From a virus, in the IMG/VR virus record IMGVR_UViG_3300047322_000252, positions 1 to 64,000 of that record: a stretch of DNA of 64,000 bases, one strand, 5' to 3'. Position 1 is the first letter of the stretch, and every line of letters starts with the position of its first letter. Below the pieces are notes generated by a model, which searched no databases, was not told the DNA's origin, and was given only the letters and a program-made list of their open reading frames with translations. A program made the position numbers and the translations under genes. Positions 3,662-31,505 of the stretch are shown in pieces.

Positions 3662-3757
3662 ACGCTCACACCATTGACACTGACAGGCCGAATGGCCTAT
3701 GTCACTCCTGGTGGTGGCGTTGTACCCTCATGACTGAACCCTAAGAAAGGGGACTGC

Positions 3758-4381
3758 ATGAGACGACGCACCACCGTTGGGGCGATCATGTTGGTGGCGG
3801 GCTTTGGCCTCGTTGGTGGTGCTGCGTTCATGGGCACCGCTGGTGCTACTGGCAACGTGGAGCACTGCACCGATGGCAATGGGCAGGACGGGGTCAACAA
3901 CCCGCACTGCACCACGGACGACAGCACCCCGCCGTCGTCCACGCCGGACAGCACCCCACCGTCGAGCACCGTGGACAGCAGCGTGCCGGACAGCACGCCG
4001 CCCTCGTCCACGCCTCCACCCTCCGACAGTGTCCCCCCGCCCGACTCGTCGGTGCCGCCGCCTGACAGCAGCGTGCCACCGCCTGACTCATCGGTCCCGC
4101 CCACCACGCCGCCTTCGGTGGTGGACACCACGGTGCCCCCCAGCATCGTGACGACCGTGCCCCCGAGCGTGGTGACCACGCCAGCGCCTACCCCCACCAC
4201 GGCGCCAGCACCGGACACCACGCCCGCCCCGGCTGCCCCAACGACCCCGCCCGGATCGTTGCCCAGCACCGGCTCCACCACCCTCCCCCTCCTGCTTGGC
4301 TCCCTTGGCGCCCTGTTGGCCGGTGGTGGACTGATCGTCCTGACCAGGCGGAATGAGGTCGGGACAGCGCTCGCAGCGTAG
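3758..4381 (+). CDS. Secreted Pro/Ser/Thr-rich protein with LPXTG-type sorting signal
   Basis: N-terminal signal peptide; PDS(S/T)(V/T)PP repeats; LPSTG, hydrophobic helix and RR tail. Confidence 0.85.
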   Translation: MRRRTTVGAIMLVAGFGLVGGAAFMGTAGATGNVEHCTDGNGQDGVNNPHCTTDDSTPPSSTPDSTPPSSTVDSSVPDSTPPSSTPPPSDSVPPPDSSVPPPDSSVPPPDSSVPPTTPPSVVDTTVPPSIVTTVPPSVVTTPAPTPTTAPAPDTTPAPAAPTTPPGSLPSTGSTTLPLLLGSLGALLAGGGLIVLTRRNEVGTALAA

Positions 4382-4407
4382 GCGGATCGCTCTGCGAGCA
4401 ACACACG

Positions 4408-4441
4408 GCGCCCCTGGTCACAGCGACCAGGGGCGCTTTGT
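4408..4441 (+). terminator. Intrinsic terminator
   Basis: 12-bp stem GCGCCCCTGGTC/GACCAGGGGCGC followed by TTTGT. Confidence 0.8.
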
Positions 4442-4447
4442 AATATA

Positions 4448-4499
4448 GTCCGAATGACCTACGAAATCCGGTTGTGTTCTGACAACAGTTCGCTATACT
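4448..4499 (+). promoter_or_regulatory. Composite early promoter P2
   Basis: CGAA..CCTA at 4451, GTTCTGACAAC at 4476, -10 TATACT at 4494. Confidence 0.8.
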
Positions 4500-4526
4500 G
4501 ATCCTTGTAAGCAACGCAGCACCTTG

Positions 4527-5593: not shown

Positions 5594-6991
5594 ATGAGCA
5601 GATACACCACCCCTGGCCCCTGGTCCTGCATCAAGCGGACCAACATCACCGGCTTCTACGGCTCCCGCATCGGCGCCGTCCAGATCGAGACAGGCCCCCT
5701 CGTGGATGGTCGCAACGGCCAGCGCTACGAGGATGGCGCCCACAAGGTCACCGTCACCAAGAGGCCCGAGGCCTGCACTGGTGGCTGGCCCCGAGGCAAG
5801 ACGTTCAAGGGCGAGACGGCCTGGTCCAGCGCTGAGCGCTACCGGGACGACTGCGTCCACATGATGGAGAAGTACGCACGAGAGGAAGGCCTGTGATGGC
5901 CCGCACACCCCGCCATAGCCCCTACGACCCGCAGTTCGCTGACAAGCCCGACCACGTGAGCGACAACACCTTCGACCTGGTCGGCAACATCATCGCCTTC
6001 GAGAATGGCGAACTGGACGAGGACGAGTGCATCGCTTTCTTCCAGCACCTGGTCAACACTGGCCTGGCCTGGTCCCTGCAAGGCACCTACGGCCGCACGG
6101 CCATGGCCCTGATCGAGGCCGGGCTGGTGACACGATGACCACGCCCTGGCAAGACGATCGCACGGTCGGCACCATCAACATCGGCCATGTCAATGTCAGT
6201 GACCTGCTGAGCAAGCTGGTCGAGTTCTCGCTGCGCTACGGCGCCGACCTGGACCTGTACATCGATGGCAACAACCTGGTCATCTTCGCCCCCCGGGGCG
6301 CCGCCACTCAGCCCCTCCCTTTGGAGGAACGCCGAGAGGTCGGCATGCACTGGCTGGCTGACATTCTTGGAAGGATCACACGATGAGCACCTTGGAGGTC
6401 CACCACGACGAGGAAGTGGGCACCGTGCTGGTGGTCCAGCGCTACCAGCGTGCCCGAGTCGCATACCAGTGTGATGCGTGCATCACAGGCGGTCCCATCG
6501 TCAAGGGTGAGGTCTACCGCTACGTTTGGAGCATGTTGGAGGGCGACAGCCTGGTCCAGCGGTTCCACGCCGGGTGCGTCTAGTGCCCCGCCTGCGCCTC
6601 TTGGAGCCTCTTGGAGCGCCTTTGGAGCTATCGGCGCCCCGGAGGCCCAAGCTGGCCCAGGTGGCCGCTCAGTGCCCCTTCTGCCGTGGTGCTGGCTACC
6701 TGTACGGCCGAGTGCTGTGCCCCACGTGCGAGGGCGCTGGTGTCGCCTAAGACGTCCAGCGGGTGGTTCGGCCTGGCGTGCTTCAACGCCCTGAGCCACG
6801 AGCAGCAGCGCATGCTGATCGAGGACGGCGTGCTGCCGTTCGGCCGCAAGTGGCCCGAGGGCGCCGGGTGCGAGCGTGGTGCGAGCGTGGCGATCGAGGT
6901 CGAGGGCGACGAGGCACCAGGGCCACGCTTCTACTGCGTGCCGTGCGGCATCGAGTACCTGCGCACCGTCACCATTGACACTGACACGTGA
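5594..6991 (+). CDS. Operon of six small genes (5594-5896, 5893-6138, 6135-6386, 6383-6583, 6583-6750 with CxxCxGxG Zn finger, 6740-6991)
   Basis: Chain of overlapping ORFs; 5893-6138 carries a common phage motif (ENGEL..LVNTGLAWSLQGTYGR). Confidence 0.7.
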
Positions 6992-7040
6992 CCGTTGTCA
7001 CAACACGCTCCGTGGTCGATACCTCACACCGTTGTGAATG

Positions 7041-7100
7041 GTCCGAAATACCTACGAGTATGACGACTGTTCTGACAACAACGGGACTAGACTCGCTGGT
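7041..7100 (+). promoter_or_regulatory. Composite early promoter P4 (leaderless)
   Basis: CGAA..CCTA at 7044, GTTCTGACAAC at 7069, -10 TAGACT at 7088, ATG at 7101. Confidence 0.78.
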
Positions 7101-7871
7101 ATGACCAGCAAGCCCGCCTCCGAGAGGCAGTACGCCTACCTGACCACCCTGCTGAACGAGCGTGACCCGGCCGTGACCGGCGTCCCCGACGTCGCAGCCT
7201 TCATCCAGTCCCTGCGGGACAACGGCGCCACCAGCGCCCAGGTGTCGGCCATCATCAAGGCCGTCCTGGCCCTGCCTAAGGCCGCTGCGCCTGCCGGTGC
7301 TGCCCCTGCGGGCCGGACCAACAACTACGGCGCCAAGTGCGTCAAGTGCGGCGTCTACGTGCCTGCCGGTGCTGGCGTCATCACCAAGAACAGCGCTGGC
7401 AAGTGGGACACCACCCACGTCCAGCCCTGCCCCGAGGTCGAGGCCAAGCTGCCCACGCCTGACGTGAGCACCCTGACCGAGGGTGTCTACGTGGACGAGG
7501 ACGGCACCGTGTGGAAGGTCTACACCGGCCGTCAGTCGGGGCGCCTGCAAGCTGCCACGCTCACCAACCACGGCGACCACGGCACCTTCGAGTTCGTGCG
7601 TGGTGGCCTGCGCATGGTGGCCGATGCCCTCGTGGCCCGGACCATGCGCCTGCTCACCCAGGACGAGGCCGCTGCGTTCGGGCGCCTGAACGGCTTCTGC
7701 TGCAACTGCGGCCTGGCGATCGAGGACGATCGCAGCGTGGCTGCCGGGTACGGACCCAAGTGCGCCACCAACCTGGGCTGGTGGTACCCCACCTACGAGG
7801 AAGCCGCCGCCATCCTGGGGCGCCCTGTCACCAAGCCTTCCGGCGTGGTGGTCCAGCCCCCCGCTGCGTGA
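7101..7871 (+). CDS. Zn-finger protein with C-terminal DUF6011-like domain
   Basis: CCNCGLAIEDDRSVAAGYGPKCA fits the recalled CxxCG..L.D..S...G.GP.C pattern; second CVKC motif. Confidence 0.75.
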   Translation: MTSKPASERQYAYLTTLLNERDPAVTGVPDVAAFIQSLRDNGATSAQVSAIIKAVLALPKAAAPAGAAPAGRTNNYGAKCVKCGVYVPAGAGVITKNSAGKWDTTHVQPCPEVEAKLPTPDVSTLTEGVYVDEDGTVWKVYTGRQSGRLQAATLTNHGDHGTFEFVRGGLRMVADALVARTMRLLTQDEAAAFGRLNGFCCNCGLAIEDDRSVAAGYGPKCATNLGWWYPTYEEAAAILGRPVTKPSGVVVQPPAA

Positions 7872-7883
7872 CCGTTGTCACAA

Positions 7884-7944
7884 CAGGGATAGGGCCGAAA
7901 GGCCCATCCCTGAGTGTGTGTTCTGACAACACGCCCGATAGACT
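7884..7944 (+). promoter_or_regulatory. Hairpin overlapping composite early promoter P5
   Basis: CAGGGAT-A-GGGCC GAAA GGCCC-ATCCCTG hairpin; CGAA at 7896, GTTCTGACAAC at 7920, -10 TAGACT at 7939. Confidence 0.7.
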
Positions 7945-7982
7945 GACGCTTGCCAGTCACCCACCGAGAGGAACCCCTGACC

Positions 7983-9206
7983 ATGCCCACGCACCGCACG
8001 CCCCCCACGCCCATCCGGCGCCACCTGAGCCGCCAGCACACGAACACCGTGGCTGCCAACGCCGTCATCTCGCAGGCGTTCTTCCCCGGCATGGGCTGGT
8101 CGAACCTGACCCACCTGCCCCTGCCCACCCGTAGCGCCATCTGCGTGCTGCGTGACCGGGGCGCCACCATGCTCGCCGTGAGCTACGCCAAGCCTCACAC
8201 CCGTAACCGGGTGACGGCTGACTTCACCGTGGCCGAGTGCCTGGTGGCGTCATGAGCACCGTCCGGCACCCCAACCACGTGGTGATGGCGACCGGCTCCG
8301 AGGTCATCCACGCCGCCTCTGACGTGGCCCTGGCCCAGCGCCGCCACGTCCTGGCCTGCAACGGTCGAGCCATCCAAGGCGGTGCCTGGGATGACGTTGT
8401 GACCAAGGTCACCTGCAAGGCCTGCCTCCGGGCGCTCGCCTCCGGGCGGGCCGTGTGGATCGGGCGTGCGTCATGATCCACGCCCTTTCCGCCGATGCCA
8501 CCTTCCCCGCCATGGTGGTGACCGTCACCTGTGAGGACGGCGCCATCAGGCACGCACCCTTCGCCAGCATGGCCGAGGCCCGCACCTGGGCCGAGTGGGG
8601 TCACTGCTGCACCAACCGCCACCGCTTCACGAGTCACCAGGAGAACCCGTCATGACCACCACCAACAACTGCCCCGTCTGCGGGACCGAGGTCACCGTGT
8701 GGGCCGACCTGTCGGGCGGGATCACCGTCAACTTCCGGTGCCCGAACGAGGCCTGCCCGGCAGGCAAGGCACCGTGGGACACGCCCGAGCCGGGCGTGGA
8801 CTACGAGCCATCGGTCTGCATGAACTGCGGCGAGGACGAGCACACGGCCGAGGAACTGGCCGAGTGCATCGACTCAGTGACCAATCCCTGGCCCGGCATC
8901 GAGCGCAACGTGCCGGTCACCCCGGCCCTGCGGCGCCGGTTCGTCTCCCGTAACTGGTGCTTCGGCTACAACGGCCACAGCATCTACCAGCTTGGCACCC
9001 TGCCTGCGGACCTGTACGCCGTGACCTGGGACCGGGATCACAACCCGGTGATCACCGGCCGCATCAAGGGCGCCAGCACACAGAGCACCGCCGACCTGAT
9101 CGCTTTCCTCTCCGAGTGGGAAGGCTGAGCGATGACGGACGAGCAGCGGGCCGCTGTGTACTTCCTCGTGATCAACCGGGGCGAGGAAGGGGACGACGAC
9201 GAGTAG
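7983..9206 (+). CDS. Operon of small genes (7983-8255, 8252-8476, 8473-8655, 8652-9128, 9132-9206)
   Basis: GAGAGGA RBS; ATGA overlaps; Cys motifs. Confidence 0.7.
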
Positions 9207-9207
9207 C

Positions 9208-9463
9208 TGACCAGGCCACGGTGCGCCGCAAGCACCGACACGACTGGTCAATCAGTTCTCGCCCGCAAGGGCGAGGGCTGGTGAGAGTGCATCGCCCCCG
9301 GGTGGTGCGTTGTCACCAGCCCCATGGGCCACGGTGCGCACTGCCCCGGCAAGGGTGCTGCGCAGCGGCTGGCATGGCCCAGCACCAGGACAAGCACACA
9401 CGGCGCATTGCCGTGCGACGTCTGTGCCCCTGTGTGTCGTCCGTTCGAGTCGGGCATGGGGTA
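9208..9463 (+). ncRNA. Candidate structured RNA 3 with tRNA-like acceptor/T-arm module
   Basis: Consecutive hairpins with GCAA loops; acceptor-like GCCCCAT 9319-9325/ATGGGGT 9456-9462; T-arm GTCCG TTCGAGT CGGGC 9439-9455. Confidence 0.65.
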
Positions 9464-9549
9464 TTACGTGTGTGAATCTCGTCACACTAGGCCACAATAC
9501 CTAGTGTTCTGACAACAGAAAGGGCCTCTGACCAGCTATTATGTCTCTC

Positions 9550-11100
9550 ATGAGCAACGCACCCATCACCCCTGACAGCCCCCTGGCGGGCCTGTTCGCC
9601 CAGGTCGTCGGCACCGCTGCCGTCGTCGCCGCCACCAACAACCTGGCCCCGGTCCTGTCGTTCGACACCCTGGCCCTCCCCCTCATGGCCCACCAGGTCG
9701 AGGCCGTCCAGCGCATCCACCACGACGTCGCCACCTACGGCGGGAGCTACGTGGGCGATGACATGGGCCTTGGCAAGACGTTTGAGGCCCTAGCGGCTGT
9801 TGCCCTGGCCCCGAACAGCTACCCGGCCCTGATCATCTGCCCGCCCTCTGTCACGCTGAACTGGCGCAACGAGGCCCGCCGCCTGATCCCCGGCGTCCGG
9901 GTCGAGGTGCTGAGTGGCACCAAGCCGGTGCTGCCTGCGCCCGCCGACATCTACGTCATGGGCGACAGTGTGCTCGCCGCATGGGCTGGCCTGGCGGTCG
10001 AGAACTACGTGGACAACCGGGACGTGCCCCGCAAGCGTGACGTCGTCCGGGGCGTGCTCACCGCCATGGGCATCCGGGCGCTGGTGGTGGACGAGGCCCA
10101 CCGCTTCAAGTCCTACAAGGCCCAGCGGGCACGTGCGGCCATGGCGTTCGCCGCCACCCTGCCCCGGGGCGCCCAGCGCATCCTGCTGAGCGGCACCGCC
10201 GTGGACAACCGCTCCGAGGAACTGGCGACGCAGATCCGCATCGCTGGCGTGGATCACGTGTTCGGCGGCTGGTTCAACTTCCTGGAAACGTACGCACCCA
10301 AGCAGGGCTATGCCCGGGTGAGCCGTCACAGTGACGAGCTTCACGCCAAGCTGGTGAGCACCTTCTACCTGCGCCGCCTGCGCACCGAGGTCCTGAGCCT
10401 GCCCGGCAAGGGGCGCAAGCTGGTGGCTGCGGCCATGGCCGGTAAGGCTGCCAGTGACTACCTCGCCGCCCAGGACGATCTCATCGCCTACGTGCGGGGG
10501 ACCAAGGGCCGCAAGGCTGCCGAGGTCGCCAGTCGGGCCGAGGCCCTGGTCCTGCTGACCACCCTGCGCCGCCTGGTCGGTGAGGCCAAGGTGGCTGCCG
10601 TGGTCGCCTACGTCCAGGACCTGGTGGACGACGGGGAGCAGGTGTTCGTGGCTGCCTGGCATGCGCCCATGGTCAAGGCCCTGACTGACGCCTTCGGCGC
10701 CGTGAACGTGGTCGGCGGTATGAAGGTCGAGGACAAGCAGGCGGCGGTCGAGGCGTTCCAGAACGGCACCGCCCGGGTGCTGGTGGGCAACATCGTGGCC
10801 GCTGGTGTGGGCATCACGCTCACCGCTGCCCGCCACGTAGTGGTGGCAGAACTGCCGTGGACGCCGGGAGCGCTGGCCCAGGTCGAGGACCGGCTGGACC
10901 GTATCGGCCAGACACGTGAGGTCGTCTCCCACATCATGCTGGGGACGAACGGCATCCCCACGGTGGACGAGCGCATCATGGCGATCCTCAACGAGAAGGC
11001 GGCAGTCACCGGCATGATCATGGACGGCAAGGCTGCCAGCATCATCGATGACGACACGATCAGCGCCGCCCTGCTGGACAGCTACCGGGACGCCGCCTAG
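9550..11100 (+). CDS. SNF2-family (SF2) DNA helicase/translocase
   Basis: DDMGLGKT, DEAH, LSGT, GVGITL, QVEDRLDRIGQ motifs; -10 TATTAT before a leaderless ATG. Confidence 0.93.
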   Translation: MSNAPITPDSPLAGLFAQVVGTAAVVAATNNLAPVLSFDTLALPLMAHQVEAVQRIHHDVATYGGSYVGDDMGLGKTFEALAAVALAPNSYPALIICPPSVTLNWRNEARRLIPGVRVEVLSGTKPVLPAPADIYVMGDSVLAAWAGLAVENYVDNRDVPRKRDVVRGVLTAMGIRALVVDEAHRFKSYKAQRARAAMAFAATLPRGAQRILLSGTAVDNRSEELATQIRIAGVDHVFGGWFNFLETYAPKQGYARVSRHSDELHAKLVSTFYLRRLRTEVLSLPGKGRKLVAAAMAGKAASDYLAAQDDLIAYVRGTKGRKAAEVASRAEALVLLTTLRRLVGEAKVAAVVAYVQDLVDDGEQVFVAAWHAPMVKALTDAFGAVNVVGGMKVEDKQAAVEAFQNGTARVLVGNIVAAGVGITLTAARHVVVAELPWTPGALAQVEDRLDRIGQTREVVSHIMLGTNGIPTVDERIMAILNEKAAVTGMIMDGKAASIIDDDTISAALLDSYRDAA

Positions 11101-11174: not shown

Positions 11175-11210
11175 GAGCACCCGCCCCCACCAGGGCGGGT
11201 GCTCTCTGTT
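11175..11210 (+). terminator. Intrinsic terminator closing the early region
   Basis: 12-bp stem GAGCACCCGCCC/GGGCGGGTGCTC followed by TCTGTT. Confidence 0.75.
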
Positions 11211-11739
11211 GTGACACCAGGCGAGCCTAATCGGCGCCCATGGGATGCCCACGGCATGAGGCAGAGTGATCAAGTGCATGCCCTGTCTCACCGTCACCCC
11301 CTCCCCTACTGCCTAGCTATGTCAGGCAGTGACACATGCCACACCCCTCCCACCCTAGTGAGCGTGGCGTAGCCACTCTCCCCTCTGCCTGTCGTGCCTG
11401 CTCATGCCCCTATGGGCATGACCTAGATCAACCCTGGCCCCGGTTGTCAAGGCAGTTGTGACAACAGCCTGCCTTGACATACGCCCTCACCTGTGAAACA
11501 CCAGGTCACAGACCTGTTGTGATAACTGTCACACCACATGTGCCTCATGGCACATGTGTTGACAACATGCCCTGACCTGCGGCTACGCCGCCTGTCAAGG
11601 GCTGTGAATCATGTCACACCCCTGTGACATTAATCACCCTGACCGGGCTGCGCCCGGGCTAGGACTCCCATGTGCAAGGGGGGTTTCCCGGGGGACTCGT
11701 GTAGTGGTATATGCACTCGTGTGTGGTACAATGTGGTGC
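11211..11739. other. Long palindrome-rich non-coding control region
   Basis: No credible ORF; inverted repeats at 11445-11479, 11535-11558, 11611-11630; clustered GTTGTGACAAC-type boxes. Confidence 0.65.
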
Positions 11740-12057
11740 ATGAGCGTGAACACCTCCATACGCCTGCCTCTGGACTTGAAGGAGCGGCTACAGGCTGCTG
11801 CTGACGAAGAGGGCAGGAGCCTGAACAACTACATGATCCGCATCCTCCAAGAAGCCTCGAACCTCAGGGAGGGCCATTCGACCCTTGGCAGTTCCCCTGC
11901 CCCCGATAGTATGAAGGGTATGTCCCGAGCGGTGCCGTCGAAGAGAGCGTCCAAGAGGGCCACGGCCCATCAACGGCTGGTGCAGGAGCGGGATGAAGCC
12001 GCTCGCCAGGAGATCAAGAACCGGGTCCTGGGCCAGAGAGAGGGAGGGCCGTCATGA
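11740..12057 (+). CDS. Arc/HicB-like ribbon-helix-helix DNA-binding protein
   Basis: TSIRLPLDLKERLQAAADEEGRSLNNYMIRIL; -10 TACAAT, leaderless. Confidence 0.85.
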   Translation: MSVNTSIRLPLDLKERLQAAADEEGRSLNNYMIRILQEASNLREGHSTLGSSPAPDSMKGMSRAVPSKRASKRATAHQRLVQERDEAARQEIKNRVLGQREGGPS

Positions 12058-22054: not shown

Positions 22055-22171
22055 TGACGGAGGGGCCGATACACCAAACCATGGCGGGGGAGGGGAGCGG
22101 CCCCTCCGTCAGTTCTGGGGCGTTCCCTCAGGAGAGGGCTGATCAGGCGGGTTCGATTCCCGTACGCTCCG
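22055..22171 (+). ncRNA. Candidate RNA 4: 14-bp hairpin plus anticodon-less tRNA-like module
   Basis: TG-G-TATGAT extended -10 at 22040; stem 22055-22068/22098-22111; acceptor GGGGCGT/ACGCTCC; CCCTC/GAGGG arm; T-arm GCGGG TTCGATT CCCGT. Confidence 0.72.
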
Positions 22172-31336: not shown

Positions 31337-31410
31337 CGGGGTGTAGATCAGTTGGTTAGATCGCAGGTCTGGGGGACCTGAGGGCGTGGGTTCGAGTCCC
31401 ACCACCCCGA
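31337..31410 (+). tRNA. tRNA-Pro(GGG), CCA not encoded
   Basis: Full cloverleaf: CGGGGTG/CACCCCG, GATC/GATC, CAGGT-CTGGGGG-ACCTG, GTGGG-TTCGAGT-CCCAC. Confidence 0.93.
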
Positions 31411-31431: not shown

Positions 31432-31505
31432 GGGGCCATAGCTCAGCCAGGTAGAGCGCCGCCATGGCATGGCGGATGTCAGGGGTTCAACTCCCCTTGG
31501 CTCCA
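31432..31505 (+). tRNA. tRNA-Ala(GGC), CCA not encoded
   Basis: Full cloverleaf: GGGGCCA/TGGCTCC with G3-U70, GCTC/GAGC, CCGCC-ATGGCAT-GGCGG, AGGGG-TTCAACT-CCCCT. Confidence 0.95.

What the first reader, a model, noticed from the sequence alone, without database searches (positions are those of the whole stretch)
9208..9463. RNA 3: tRNA-like acceptor/T-arm with two oversized arms and a possible switch
Seen: GCCCCAT (9319-9325) pairs with ATGGGGT (9456-9462) next to T-arm 9439-9455, enclosing about 113 nt folded as two long arms. Upstream are three more hairpins. GGCCACGGTGCGC is repeated at 9214 and 9327, and GCAAG recurs in loops. Bases 9319-9322 can alternatively pair in the 9275-9284/9313-9322 stem, so the two folds are partly exclusive. 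Inference: a tRNA mimic released from the 3' end of an early operon, with repeated protein-binding hairpins.
Basis: partly seen in the sequence, partly recalled or inferred. Interest (0 to 1): 0.74.

Follow-up and report, generated by a model that had tools for sequence, protein, structure and literature searches.

The report
tRNA-like RNA behind phage early genes
A 256-base non-coding stretch at the end of an early gene block of an uncultivated soil phage can fold into three very stable hairpins followed by a 145-base tRNA look-alike, much like the still unexplained RNAC of phage T4, but nothing yet shows that it is made, cut out or conserved.

Summary
The window is the first 64 kb of a 118-kb, 65% G+C, terminally repeated phage record from soil and rhizosphere metagenomes. 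Bases 9208-9463 are non-coding. They lie between the last small ORF of an early unit and the promoter module of the helicase gene.

On the + strand, 9208-9318 forms three hairpins far more stable than shuffles (z -6.1). On its own, 9319-9463 folds as a four-way junction:
- a 7-bp acceptor stem;
- two ~55-nt arms;
- a canonical T arm, followed by discriminator A, with no encoded CCA.

This exact 17-base T arm occurs at 23 places in IMG/VR, 21 of them inside called tRNA genes. Phage T4 RNAC (function unknown) has the same architecture.

Evidence against:
- The tRNA-like part is not more stable than shuffles (z -1.35).
- The acceptor stem loses to an alternative pairing in longer transcripts.
- The whole cluster is absent from the nearest reachable relatives.
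- No RNA data exist.

Best reading (0.45): a tRNA-derived, non-decoding RNA that acts as an RNase P-type processing signal and stable RNA at a unit's 3' end. Main rival: a 3' hairpin cluster with an inert tRNA relic.

The parts
9132..9206 (+). 24-aa ORF (MTDEQRAAVYFLVINRGEEGDDDE), the last coding sequence of the early unit. The RNA cluster starts 2 nt after its stop codon.
   Evidence: GC3 0.92, like real genes. Absent in relatives G001/G002.
9208..9250 (+). Hairpin H1: a 7-bp outer stem TGACCAG/CTGGTCA and an inner 6-bp stem with a loop containing GCAAG. It holds copy 1 of GGCCACGGTGCGC.
   Evidence: z -3.2, with 2 of 200 shuffles as stable. Fold.
9254..9279 (+). Hairpin H2: core CUCGCCC-GCAA-GGGCGAG, a GNRA-type tetraloop.
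   Evidence: z -4.2, 0 of 200 shuffles.
9275..9322 (+). Hairpin H3. The long form is 10+11 bp with 4 G.U pairs in the inner stem. The short form, 9280-9317, leaves 9319-9322 free for the acceptor stem.
   Evidence: z -6.9, 0 of 200 shuffles. One C is put in behind 9294, in the loop C-run, in 1 of the 3 laid runs whose contigs cover the cluster.
9319..9463 (+). 145-nt tRNA-like element: acceptor 9319-9325/9456-9462, arm 1 9326-9380, arm 2 9382-9437, T arm 9439-9455, discriminator A9463. Junction linkers are 0, 1, 1 and 0 nt.
   Evidence: MFE equals centroid at -75 kcal/mol. P(acceptor) 0.91 and P(T arm) 0.98 in isolation. z is only -1.35.
9439..9455 (+). T arm GTCCG/TTCGAGT/CGGGC. Its G-C closing pair is as at tRNA positions 53:61 (numbering recalled). 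The loop is identical to that of the phage's own tRNA-Pro.
   Evidence: The same 17-mer lies inside a called tRNA at 21 of 23 IMG/VR places.
9485..9549 (+). Promoter module of the next unit: hairpin/motif CACTAGG..CCTAGTG (9485-9506), TGTTCTGACAACA (9505-17), TATTAT (9537-42), then ATG at 9550. The mRNA would be leaderless (inferred).
   Evidence: The same motif plus TAnnnT plus about 7 nt plus ATG occurs at 1113, 5561 and 7068. The motif with a TAnnnT box also occurs at 4475 and 7919, where no nearby ATG was seen. The database copy of the helicase has 516 aa, which puts its start at 9550.
9550..11100 (+). SNF2-family helicase gene, downstream neighbour.
   Evidence: PF00176 and PF00271 on its homologues.
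8595..9128 (+). Zinc-ribbon-like protein of unknown function (P0002), upstream neighbour.
   Evidence: Weak PF03119 match only. Four proteins in the database at E <= 0.001, one of which is the window's own.

Best explanation
Bases 9208-9463 are the non-coding 3' end of an early transcription unit that starts at the promoter motif at 7919. It has two parts.

(1) Three very stable hairpins, H1-H3.

(2) A 145-nt tRNA-derived, non-decoding RNA. It keeps the acceptor/T-arm 'minihelix' of a tRNA, but two ~55-nt G+C-rich hairpins stand where the D and anticodon arms would be. There is no 7-nt anticodon loop.

Proposed mechanism (inferred, not shown):
- The minihelix is the part of a tRNA that RNase P, the 3'-end nucleases and the CCA-adding enzyme recognise.
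- The host would therefore cut at 9318/9319 and after A9463.
- This separates the early message from read-through into the helicase unit. The message is left ending in hairpin H3, which shields it from 3' exonucleases.
- It also releases a stable, CCA-tailed 145-nt RNA.
- The competing pairing of 9319-9322 with 9275-9278 means the tRNA-like fold is favoured only once the RNA ends near 9463.

What the released RNA does afterwards is open, as it is for T4 RNAC.
For: - The + strand of 9200-9545 folds with z -5.2; the - strand gives only -2.4. Ten of 92 pairs are G.U, so the structure is specific to + strand RNA.
- There is no coding signal. The one ORF searched across the region, 9248-9457 on the - strand, has no homologue.
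- 9319-9463 folds alone as a four-way junction with 7/7 acceptor and 5/5 T-arm pairs. That tidy a junction arises in 19 of 1000 shuffled interiors.
- The T-arm 17-mer lies inside a called tRNA at 21 of 23 IMG/VR places. The other 2 look like odd tRNA-like elements.
- Of the 7 T-arm patterns in the genome, the 2 tRNAs, this element and the 22147 element have a G-C pair closing the loop and a 7-bp acceptor partner. The 3 others have neither.
- The phage's own tRNAs also lack an encoded CCA.
- Position: the cluster lies directly before the promoter module at 9505.
- Relative G002 carries a 55-nt mini tRNA-like element in the same kind of place, between the stop codon of an early gene and the next promoter module. 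That mini family shows 5 of 16 pairs changed on both sides, against 0 in slid controls.
- No U-tailed terminator-like hairpin lies on the + strand in 7800-9700, whereas the helicase unit ends in one at 11175-11204.
- T4 RNAC folds with the same architecture: weak acceptor, long arm, hairpin and canonical T arm, z -4.6.
Against: - The tRNA-like part alone is not more stable than shuffles: z -1.35, 19 of 200. Arm 1 has z -0.5. The strong signal comes from H1-H3.
- In longer contexts the acceptor stem has probability 0.00-0.15, and the H3 extension wins in 5 of the 6 longer contexts tested.
- No homologue was found. BLAST and the covariance model R1 found only the element itself in G000-G004.
- G001/G002 have homologues of both flanking genes, but a plain promoter junction after each and no RNA cluster.
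- There is therefore no covariation and no test of T-loop conservation.
- The Rfam tRNA model gives no match at E <= 10. ARAGORN calls it only below threshold, with a contorted parse.
- The scan behind this finding covers very many windows, so a rare chance event cannot be excluded on pattern statistics alone.
Confidence: 0.45

Rival explanations
1. A cluster of stable hairpins that simply ends and protects the early message, as a terminator or 3' stabiliser. The tRNA-like look of its last part would then be fortuitous, with no interaction with tRNA enzymes.
For: The thermodynamic signal lies in H1-H3 (z -6.1), not in 9319-9463 (z -1.35). The acceptor is not predicted in read-through contexts. 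Long-range acceptor partners are about as common as chance in other phage DNA, 8 of 67. GNRA-type loops are also used by other hairpins of this phage.
Against: The exact T arm is a real tRNA T arm at 21 of 23 IMG/VR places. The tidy four-way junction arises in 19 of 1000 shuffles. No hairpin here has a U-rich tail. Other unit junctions need only one short hairpin in about 50 nt, for example 7871-7919.
Confidence: 0.28
2. A decayed or rearranged tRNA gene: a relic whose middle was replaced by unrelated hairpins. It would be carried along in a lineage-specific insertion without any function of its own.
For: The T arm is tRNA-type. The whole segment 9132-9463 is absent from relatives at 63-67% protein identity. 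No conservation could be shown. This phage group is mosaic here; the X19 variant joins 6664 to 8702.
Against: A decaying gene should lose acceptor complementarity and the T-loop consensus. Both are perfect here, while the interior is fully replaced yet still forms two abutting helices. The element is identical in the laid contigs of 3 of the 4 runs laid, with a single loop insertion, in H3 outside the element, in one of them. That population is near-clonal, however, so this is weak.
Confidence: 0.13
3. A DNA-level element (operator array, origin or packaging signal) whose inverted repeats only look like RNA structure.
For: The early region is full of repeated DNA motifs. An inverted-repeat region at 11.2-11.65 kb folds with z down to -9.4.
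Against: There is strand asymmetry, + z -5.2 against - z -2.4, with 10 G.U pairs. None of the repeated promoter or operator motifs lies inside 9208-9463.
Confidence: 0.04
4. A phage attachment site carrying the 3' part of a host tRNA gene.
For: Phage attP cores often copy a tRNA T arm and acceptor 3' strand (established knowledge, recalled).
Against: There is no tyrosine integrase (PF00589) and no serine recombinase (PF00239) in the complete genome. The 21-mer spanning T loop to discriminator occurs once in 185,579 species genomes, inside a coding region and not in a tRNA. The matching 5' acceptor strand is unexplained by this model.
Confidence: 0.02
5. A small cysteine-rich protein gene (ORF 9324-9512, 62 aa) or another ORF across the region.
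For: Open frames exist on both strands.
Against: GC3 is 0.56-0.76, against 0.88-0.92 for real genes. ORF 9324-9512 runs into the next promoter motif. The 69-aa minus-strand ORF has no match among 5.8 billion proteins, not even a called copy from this contig.
Confidence: 0.02

Closest known systems
Phage T4 RNAC (species 1 RNA, rnaC; 139 nt, beside the T4 tRNA cluster)
   Same: Folded here, it has an acceptor-like closing stem, one long arm, a second hairpin, then a canonical T arm CCGGG/UUCGAAU/CCCGG directly abutting the 3' acceptor strand. The size is similar (139 against 145 nt). It is phage-encoded and non-decoding. Its function is still unknown (passages read in PMC3014915, PMC9697503, PMC12685909).
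   Different: There is no sequence or model similarity; R1 gives 0 hits on T4. T4 RNAC sits in a tRNA gene cluster and its acceptor has two U.U mismatches. This element sits behind protein genes, 22 kb from the phage's two tRNAs, with three extra hairpins in front. The host phylum differs (probably Actinobacteria, inferred). That T4 RNAC is matured by tRNA enzymes is recalled, not checked here.
tRNA-like 3'/5'-end processing signals: plant mitochondrial t-elements and the MALAT1/mascRNA module
   Same: A tRNA-like fold placed at the end of a longer transcript. RNase P cutting would leave the upstream RNA with a protected 3' end and release a small tRNA-like RNA (abstracts of PMC1920247 and PMC4824109 seen in search listings). 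The 55-nt mini element of this phage scored weakly on Rfam mascRNA-menRNA, 14.9 bits.
   Different: Those are eukaryotic or organellar. No cleavage is shown here. The upstream protection would come from a hairpin, not a triple helix. This element is 145 nt, far larger than mascRNA.
tmRNA tRNA-like domain and bacterial Y RNA (YrlA) tRNA-like domain
   Same: Acceptor and/or T-arm mimicry in a larger non-decoding RNA.
   Different: ARAGORN's tmRNA search is negative even at a relaxed threshold, and no tag reading frame is present. Rfam gives no Y RNA, YrlA or tmRNA match at E <= 10. No Ro60/TROVE gene is in the genome. In YrlA the RNA ends lie at the Ro-binding stem, not at the acceptor (recalled).
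tRNA genes with insertions or introns in phages (such as L181:1833-2038, called tRNA-His(gtg) with a 120-nt intron)
   Same: A long distance between the acceptor strands, a canonical T arm, and not found by default tRNA searches.
   Different: Those keep a D region and a 7-nt anticodon loop once the insertion is removed. This element has neither, and ARAGORN parses it only below threshold, with a 2-bp D stem.

Membership tests
Canonical tRNA (Rfam RF00005 / ARAGORN) | 7-bp acceptor stem with the T arm abutting its 3' strand, followed by a discriminator base | tested here: met
   9319-25/9456-62 give 7 pairs. The T arm 9439-55 abuts directly, followed by A9463.
Canonical tRNA (Rfam RF00005 / ARAGORN) | T loop TTCRANY on a 5-bp stem closed by G-C | tested here: met
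   GTCCG/TTCGAGT/CGGGC. The identical 17-mer lies inside 21 called phage tRNAs.
Canonical tRNA (Rfam RF00005 / ARAGORN) | D arm and an anticodon arm with a 7-nt loop; overall model score | tested here: not met
   The arms are 55 and 56 nt, with 5-nt and 4-nt apical loops. No RF00005 match at E <= 10. ARAGORN default gives none; it calls the element only at -ps90 with an 'intron'.
tmRNA | tRNA-like domain plus a tag-peptide reading frame | tested here: not met
   ARAGORN -m finds none, even at -ps80. Rfam finds none.
T4 RNAC-like phage stable RNA | Four-way architecture: acceptor-like stem, two non-tRNA arms, canonical T arm; about 140 nt | tested here: met
   Folds of both RNAs compared.
T4 RNAC-like phage stable RNA | Sequence or profile homology to rnaC | tested here: not met
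   R1 gives 0 matches on the T4 locus at E <= 10. Rfam holds no rnaC family to test against.
T4 RNAC-like phage stable RNA | Accumulates as a discrete stable RNA during infection | not testable with these tools
   No RNA run is listed for this phage.
t-element / mascRNA-type processing signal | Cleavage by RNase P at the 5' side and by a tRNA 3' nuclease at the 3' side | not testable with these tools
   Needs an enzyme assay or RNA end mapping.
t-element / mascRNA-type processing signal | Lies at the end of a longer transcript | tested here: inconclusive
   The position between the last ORF and the next promoter motif is shown. The transcript itself is inferred.
Bacterial Y RNA (YrlA) with Ro60 | Rfam model match and a neighbouring or genomic Ro60 (TROVE) gene | tested here: not met
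   No Rfam match. PF05731 is absent from the complete genome.
attP with a tRNA 3' copy | An integrase gene and identity to a host tRNA 3' end | tested here: not met
   PF00589 and PF00239 are absent. No tRNA carries the 21-mer in genome contigs.

The most novel reading that the evidence does not exclude
This phage group may use tRNA-derived 'minihelix' RNAs as a system. There is a long form (this 145-nt element) and a 55-nt mini form with a G3:U70 pair, the known alanine identity mark. They would be placed as punctuation at the ends of early transcription units. Host tRNA enzymes would cut them out and CCA-tail them. The released RNAs would then act early in infection as decoys or sponges for host factors that target tRNA acceptor ends, for instance defence toxins that modify or cleave the 3' end, or a synthetase. 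T4 RNAC would be the first-seen example of a widespread but unrecognised class.
Probability: 0.12. Interest if true: 0.8.

Novelty: new variant of a known kind. Interest (0 to 1): 0.5.

Why it matters
Phage T4 RNAC has been known for some fifty years (duration recalled), and the papers read here still give it no function. An RNA of the same build in an unrelated, high-G+C soil phage, placed exactly between two early units, points to a concrete and testable job: RNase P-type punctuation plus a released stable RNA. A covarying mini version sits in the same kind of place in a relative.

If confirmed, it would show that phages of Gram-positive, leaderless-mRNA hosts use tRNA mimicry to shape their early transcripts. 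It would also show that standard tRNA and Rfam searches miss this class.

If not confirmed, this is one more orphan hairpin cluster with a tRNA relic.

Tried and rejected
- RNA evidence: no RNA holder is listed among the 24 runs that hold the stretch, all soil or rhizosphere DNA. Laid contigs of 4 runs showed no base change in 9208-9463 and one inserted C behind 9294 in X22. X19 does not cover the region.
- Near relatives: no DNA match in 'phages'. The helicase is at most 31-34% identical to annotated phages.
- Viral contigs by single proteins: none.
- The metagenome scan was swamped by distant helicases, best 37%. The 77%-identical relatives (P0004, P0005) and the 117.5-kb contig behind P0126 could therefore not be fetched.
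- Exact 23-mer of T arm plus acceptor in viral contigs: 0.
- A gapped pattern with the same acceptor and T loop gave 1 hit, L181:1450-1594, in an A+T-rich 172-kb contig. The pattern forced the resemblance. Its neighbour is an intron-type tRNA-His. I do not count it as a homologue.
- Rfam: only a weak P26 match, 25.6 bits against a cut-off of 36, on H2-H3. I judge it a chance likeness of two hairpins.
- No CCA-adding enzyme, RtcB or NTP_transf_2 family is encoded by the phage.
- Pfam and PHROGs name none of the neighbours usefully.
- The strongly 'structured' region 3681-4520 turned out to be a protein gene plus a terminator, not a sister RNA.
- The mini-element pattern and model R2 found no members beyond the window and G001/G002.
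- Earlier findings of the scan were not open.
- Supplementary files of papers were not consulted.

Full report
WHAT THE WINDOW IS. The window is the first 64 kb of a 118,220-bp virus record with a 127-bp exact terminal repeat and about 65% G+C. The same sequence is held by 24 soil or rhizosphere DNA runs. No annotated phage is close: there is no DNA match, and the helicase is at most 31-34% identical. The genome has two tRNA genes, Pro(GGG) at 31337 and Ala(GGC) at 31432. Neither has an encoded CCA. It has no tyrosine or serine recombinase. A Gram-positive, probably actinobacterial host is inferred from three things:
- the G+C content;
- the leaderless gene starts;
- a phage gene for an LPSTG-anchored protein.

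- acceptor strands at 9319-9325 and 9456-9462, giving 7 pairs, the first a G.U;
- T arm 9439-9455, GTCCG/TTCGAGT/CGGGC;
- A9463 as discriminator;
- the 13-mer GGCCACGGTGCGC at 9214 and 9327;
- GCAAG three times, each in an apical loop, against 0.44 expected;
- three upstream hairpins;
- the competing stem 9275-9284/9313-9322.

SETTING. A repeated motif TGTTCTGACAACA occurs at 1113, 4475, 5561, 7068, 7919 and 9505. At 1113, 5561, 7068 and 9505 it is followed by a TAnnnT box and, about 7 nt later, an ATG. At 4475 and 7919 a TAnnnT box follows but no nearby ATG was seen. I read these as early promoters of leaderless messages; this is an inference. The database copy of the helicase is 516 aa, which places its start at 9550, as this model predicts. 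The finding therefore lies at the 3' end of the unit that begins at 7919. It starts 2 nt after the stop of a 24-aa ORF with coding-like GC3 of 0.92, and it ends about 20 nt before the next promoter module. No ORF across it looks coding: GC3 is 0.56-0.76, against 0.88-0.92. The one ORF searched across the region, 9248-9457 on the - strand, has no homologue. Other unit junctions are about 50 nt with one short hairpin, for example 7871-7919. This 300-nt junction is therefore unusual.

STRUCTURE. The + strand of 9200-9545 folds with z -5.2, and the - strand with -2.4. Ten of 92 predicted pairs are G.U, which fits an RNA read from the + strand. By parts:

| Part | z-score |
|---|---|
| H1 | -3.2 |
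| H2 | -4.2 |
| H3, long form | -6.9 |
| H1-H3 together | -6.1 |
| arm 1 | -0.5 |
| arm 2 | -2.1 |
| tRNA-like element 9319-9463 | -1.35 (19 of 200 shuffles as stable) |

The thermodynamic case therefore rests on the three upstream hairpins, not on the tRNA-like part. Taken alone, 9319-9463 folds, with MFE equal to centroid, as a four-way junction with linkers of 0, 1, 1 and 0 nt. Acceptor probability is 0.91 and T-arm probability 0.98. With the acceptor and T arm held fixed and the 113-nt interior shuffled, 170 of 1000 kept both helices in the MFE. Only 19 of 1000 gave three branches with at most 2 unpaired junction bases.

The two conformers compete. With the RNA ending at 9463 the acceptor fold is better by 3.7 kcal/mol. 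Ending at 9480 they are equal. With read-through to 9545 or more upstream sequence, the long H3 is better by 1.4-8.1 kcal/mol, and acceptor probability falls to 0.00-0.15.

IS THE tRNA LIKENESS CHANCE? The strict T-arm pattern occurs 7 times in the genome against 0.85 expected from Markov simulations. Two of these are the tRNAs. Of the other five, only 9439 and 22147 lie outside the ORFs I called, have a G-C pair closing the loop as at tRNA positions 53:61 (recalled rule), and have a 7-bp acceptor partner. A partner with at most one G.U within 24-200 nt has probability 0.075.

As a control, 1.34 Mb of other phage DNA held 67 T-arm patterns:
- 18 had a tRNA-sized acceptor partner;
- 8 had only a long-range partner;
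- 2 had only a short-range partner;
- 39 had none.

The acceptor alone therefore adds little.

The most telling result is that the exact 17-base T arm occurs at 23 places in IMG/VR. Of these, 21 lie inside ARAGORN-called tRNAs: 18 Met(CAT), 1 Arg, 1 Thr and 1 Trp. The other two lie in odd tRNA-like contexts. I take the T arm to be of tRNA descent. I did not calibrate how much of the pattern space real T arms fill, so this argument is suggestive, not a probability.

WHAT IT IS NOT.
- Not a decoding tRNA. The arms end in 5- and 4-nt loops. There is no RF00005 match at E <= 10. ARAGORN calls it only at a relaxed threshold, with a 54-nt 'intron' and a 2-bp D stem.
- Not tmRNA.
- Not a Y RNA. There is no Rfam match and no TROVE gene.
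- Not attP. There is no integrase, and the 21-mer from T loop to discriminator occurs once in 185,579 species genomes, inside a coding region.

RELATIVES. Protein searches show closer relatives exist: helicase 77%, 77% and 73% identical (P0004-6), and a P0002 homologue on a 117.5-kb contig. Their DNA could not be reached, because the one metagenome scan returned only distant helicases.

The nearest reachable records are G001 and G002, with helicase 67%, the DUF6011 gene 46% and the P0002 C-terminus 63% identical. They keep both flanking genes, but in another order. Each is followed directly by a promoter module, with no 24-aa ORF and no RNA cluster. BLAST and the covariance model R1 find nothing in G001-G004. 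Bases 9132-9463 are therefore a lineage-specific insertion in a mosaic early region. In run X19, a variant joins 6664 to 8702.

A SECOND, SMALLER tRNA-LIKE ELEMENT. The window holds a 55-nt element at 22117-22171 on the + strand:
- acceptor GGGGCGU/ACGCUCC with a G3:U70 pair;
- one 5-bp hairpin;
- an 8-nt linker;
- T arm GCGGG/UUCGAUU/CCCGU.

It matches Rfam only weakly: tRNA-Sec 19.7 bits and mascRNA 14.9 bits. G001 and G002 carry an element of the same build, with GGGGCAC/GUGCUCC, again G3:U70, and A73. Across the two versions all 16 pairs are kept, and 5 are changed on both sides, against 0 in every slid control.

In G002 it stands 17 nt after the stop codon of an early gene and 4 nt before the next promoter module. 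That is the same kind of place as the finding. I count this as independent, if indirect, support that tRNA-like modules serve at the ends of early units in this phage group. The window's own mini element lies differently, on the + strand between two minus-strand genes. I cannot explain that.

CLOSEST KNOWN. T4 RNAC (139 nt) is annotated in NC_000866 as a small stable RNA. It folds with z -4.6 into the same four parts: an acceptor-like stem with two U.U mismatches, a 70-nt arm, a 26-nt hairpin, and a canonical T arm abutting the 3' strand. Three papers state that its role is unknown (passages read in PMC3014915, PMC9697503, PMC12685909). Rfam has no family for it, so the blank Rfam result for the finding does not set the two apart. 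There is no sequence or model similarity between them. I therefore claim likeness of build, not homology.

MECHANISM PROPOSED. The acceptor/T-arm stack is what RNase P, the tRNA 3' nucleases and the CCA-adding enzyme recognise (established knowledge, recalled). The proposal therefore runs as follows:
- Cutting at 9318/9319 would leave the early message ending in H3, the most stable hairpin of the region.
- Cutting after A9463 would free a 145-nt RNA.
- Its tRNA-like fold is the favoured one exactly when the RNA ends there.
- The unit has no U-tailed hairpin on the + strand, whereas the helicase unit ends in one at 11175-11204 and the unit before the 4475 promoter ends in a 12-13-bp hairpin followed by UUUGU.

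All of these steps are inferred; none is shown. The phage encodes no CCA-adding enzyme, RtcB or NTP_transf_2 protein, so host enzymes would have to act.

VERDICT. The element is best described as an orphan, tRNA-derived, T4-RNAC-like RNA module at an operon end. Confidence is 0.45. The main rival is a protective hairpin cluster whose tRNA part is inert.

Noticed in passing
window 22117-22171 (+); G002:C1:45423-45369 (-) = L167:5369-5423; G001 48988-48934 (-): A 55-nt mini tRNA-like element: a 7-bp acceptor with G3:U70, one small hairpin, an 8-nt linker and a canonical T arm. It is kept in two phage lineages, with 5 of 16 pairs changed on both sides. ARAGORN does not call it at its default threshold, and Rfam matches it only weakly, below the gathering score. 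In G002 it lies between an early gene's stop codon and the next promoter module.
   Followed up: partly
window 1113, 4475, 5561, 7068, 7919, 9505 (+): Repeated early-region motif TGTTCTGACAACA. It is preceded by a GNCCNAANNNCCTAN-like element and followed by a TAnnnT box; at 1113, 5561, 7068 and 9505 an ATG follows about 7 nt later. These are probably promoters of leaderless mRNAs. Relatives use TTGTTGACTCAAC in the same place.
   Followed up: partly
window 3758-4381 (+): Phage early gene for a 207-aa Pro/Ser/Thr-rich protein with a signal-peptide-like start, an LPSTG sortase motif at residue 168, a hydrophobic stretch and an RRNE tail. A 12-13-bp hairpin with a UUUGU tail follows at about 4407-4446. 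My GC3-based gene caller missed it, and its repeats gave strong false 'RNA structure' z-scores.
   Followed up: partly
window 11175-11680 (+): After the helicase gene comes a 12-bp terminator-like hairpin (11175-11204). It is followed by a region dense in TGTTGTGACA-type inverted repeats, with folding z down to -9.4. This lies just upstream of a gene with an Arc/ribbon-helix-helix domain (11611-12057), so it is probably an operator array.
   Followed up: no
window 6664-8702, run X19: A contig in one 2020 rhizosphere run joins 6664 to 8702 with 31 other letters between them. This indicates a variant phage in which about 2 kb of the early region is replaced. Cover of 8702-9743 is near zero in that run.
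   Followed up: no
window 9541 vs 9550: The helicase ORF opens at ATG 9541. The promoter spacing and the 516-aa database copy both point to ATG 9550 as the real start.
   Followed up: partly
L181:1450-1594 and L181:1833-2038 (IMG/VR contig of 172 kb, A+T-rich): Two paralogous long tRNA-like genes, 145 and 206 nt, with nearly identical 5' ends (GCCCCAYUAGUUUAACAGGA) and T arms. The second is called tRNA-His(gtg) with a 120-nt intron by ARAGORN -i. The default ARAGORN run on the locus and Rfam called neither.
   Followed up: partly
L200:4653-4669 (-) and L206:2835-2851 (-): The only two IMG/VR places where the finding's exact T-arm 17-mer is not inside a called tRNA. Both look like over-long tRNA-like elements: one is 104 nt with a 7-bp acceptor, the other sits inside a tRNA cluster.
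   Followed up: partly
whole genome G000: The 10-mer GGCCACGGTG, the start of the repeated 13-mer, occurs 13 times on the two strands of the 118-kb genome, mostly inside genes. My rough expectation is about 1. I have no explanation.
   Followed up: no
L002:7676-7732 (+): Directly after a gene's stop in G001/G002 there is a structure closed by an 11-bp stem GGGGCGCUCCU/AGGAGCGCCCC with inner hairpins. It matched the mini-element model weakly, 19.7 bits, but has no T loop.
   Followed up: no
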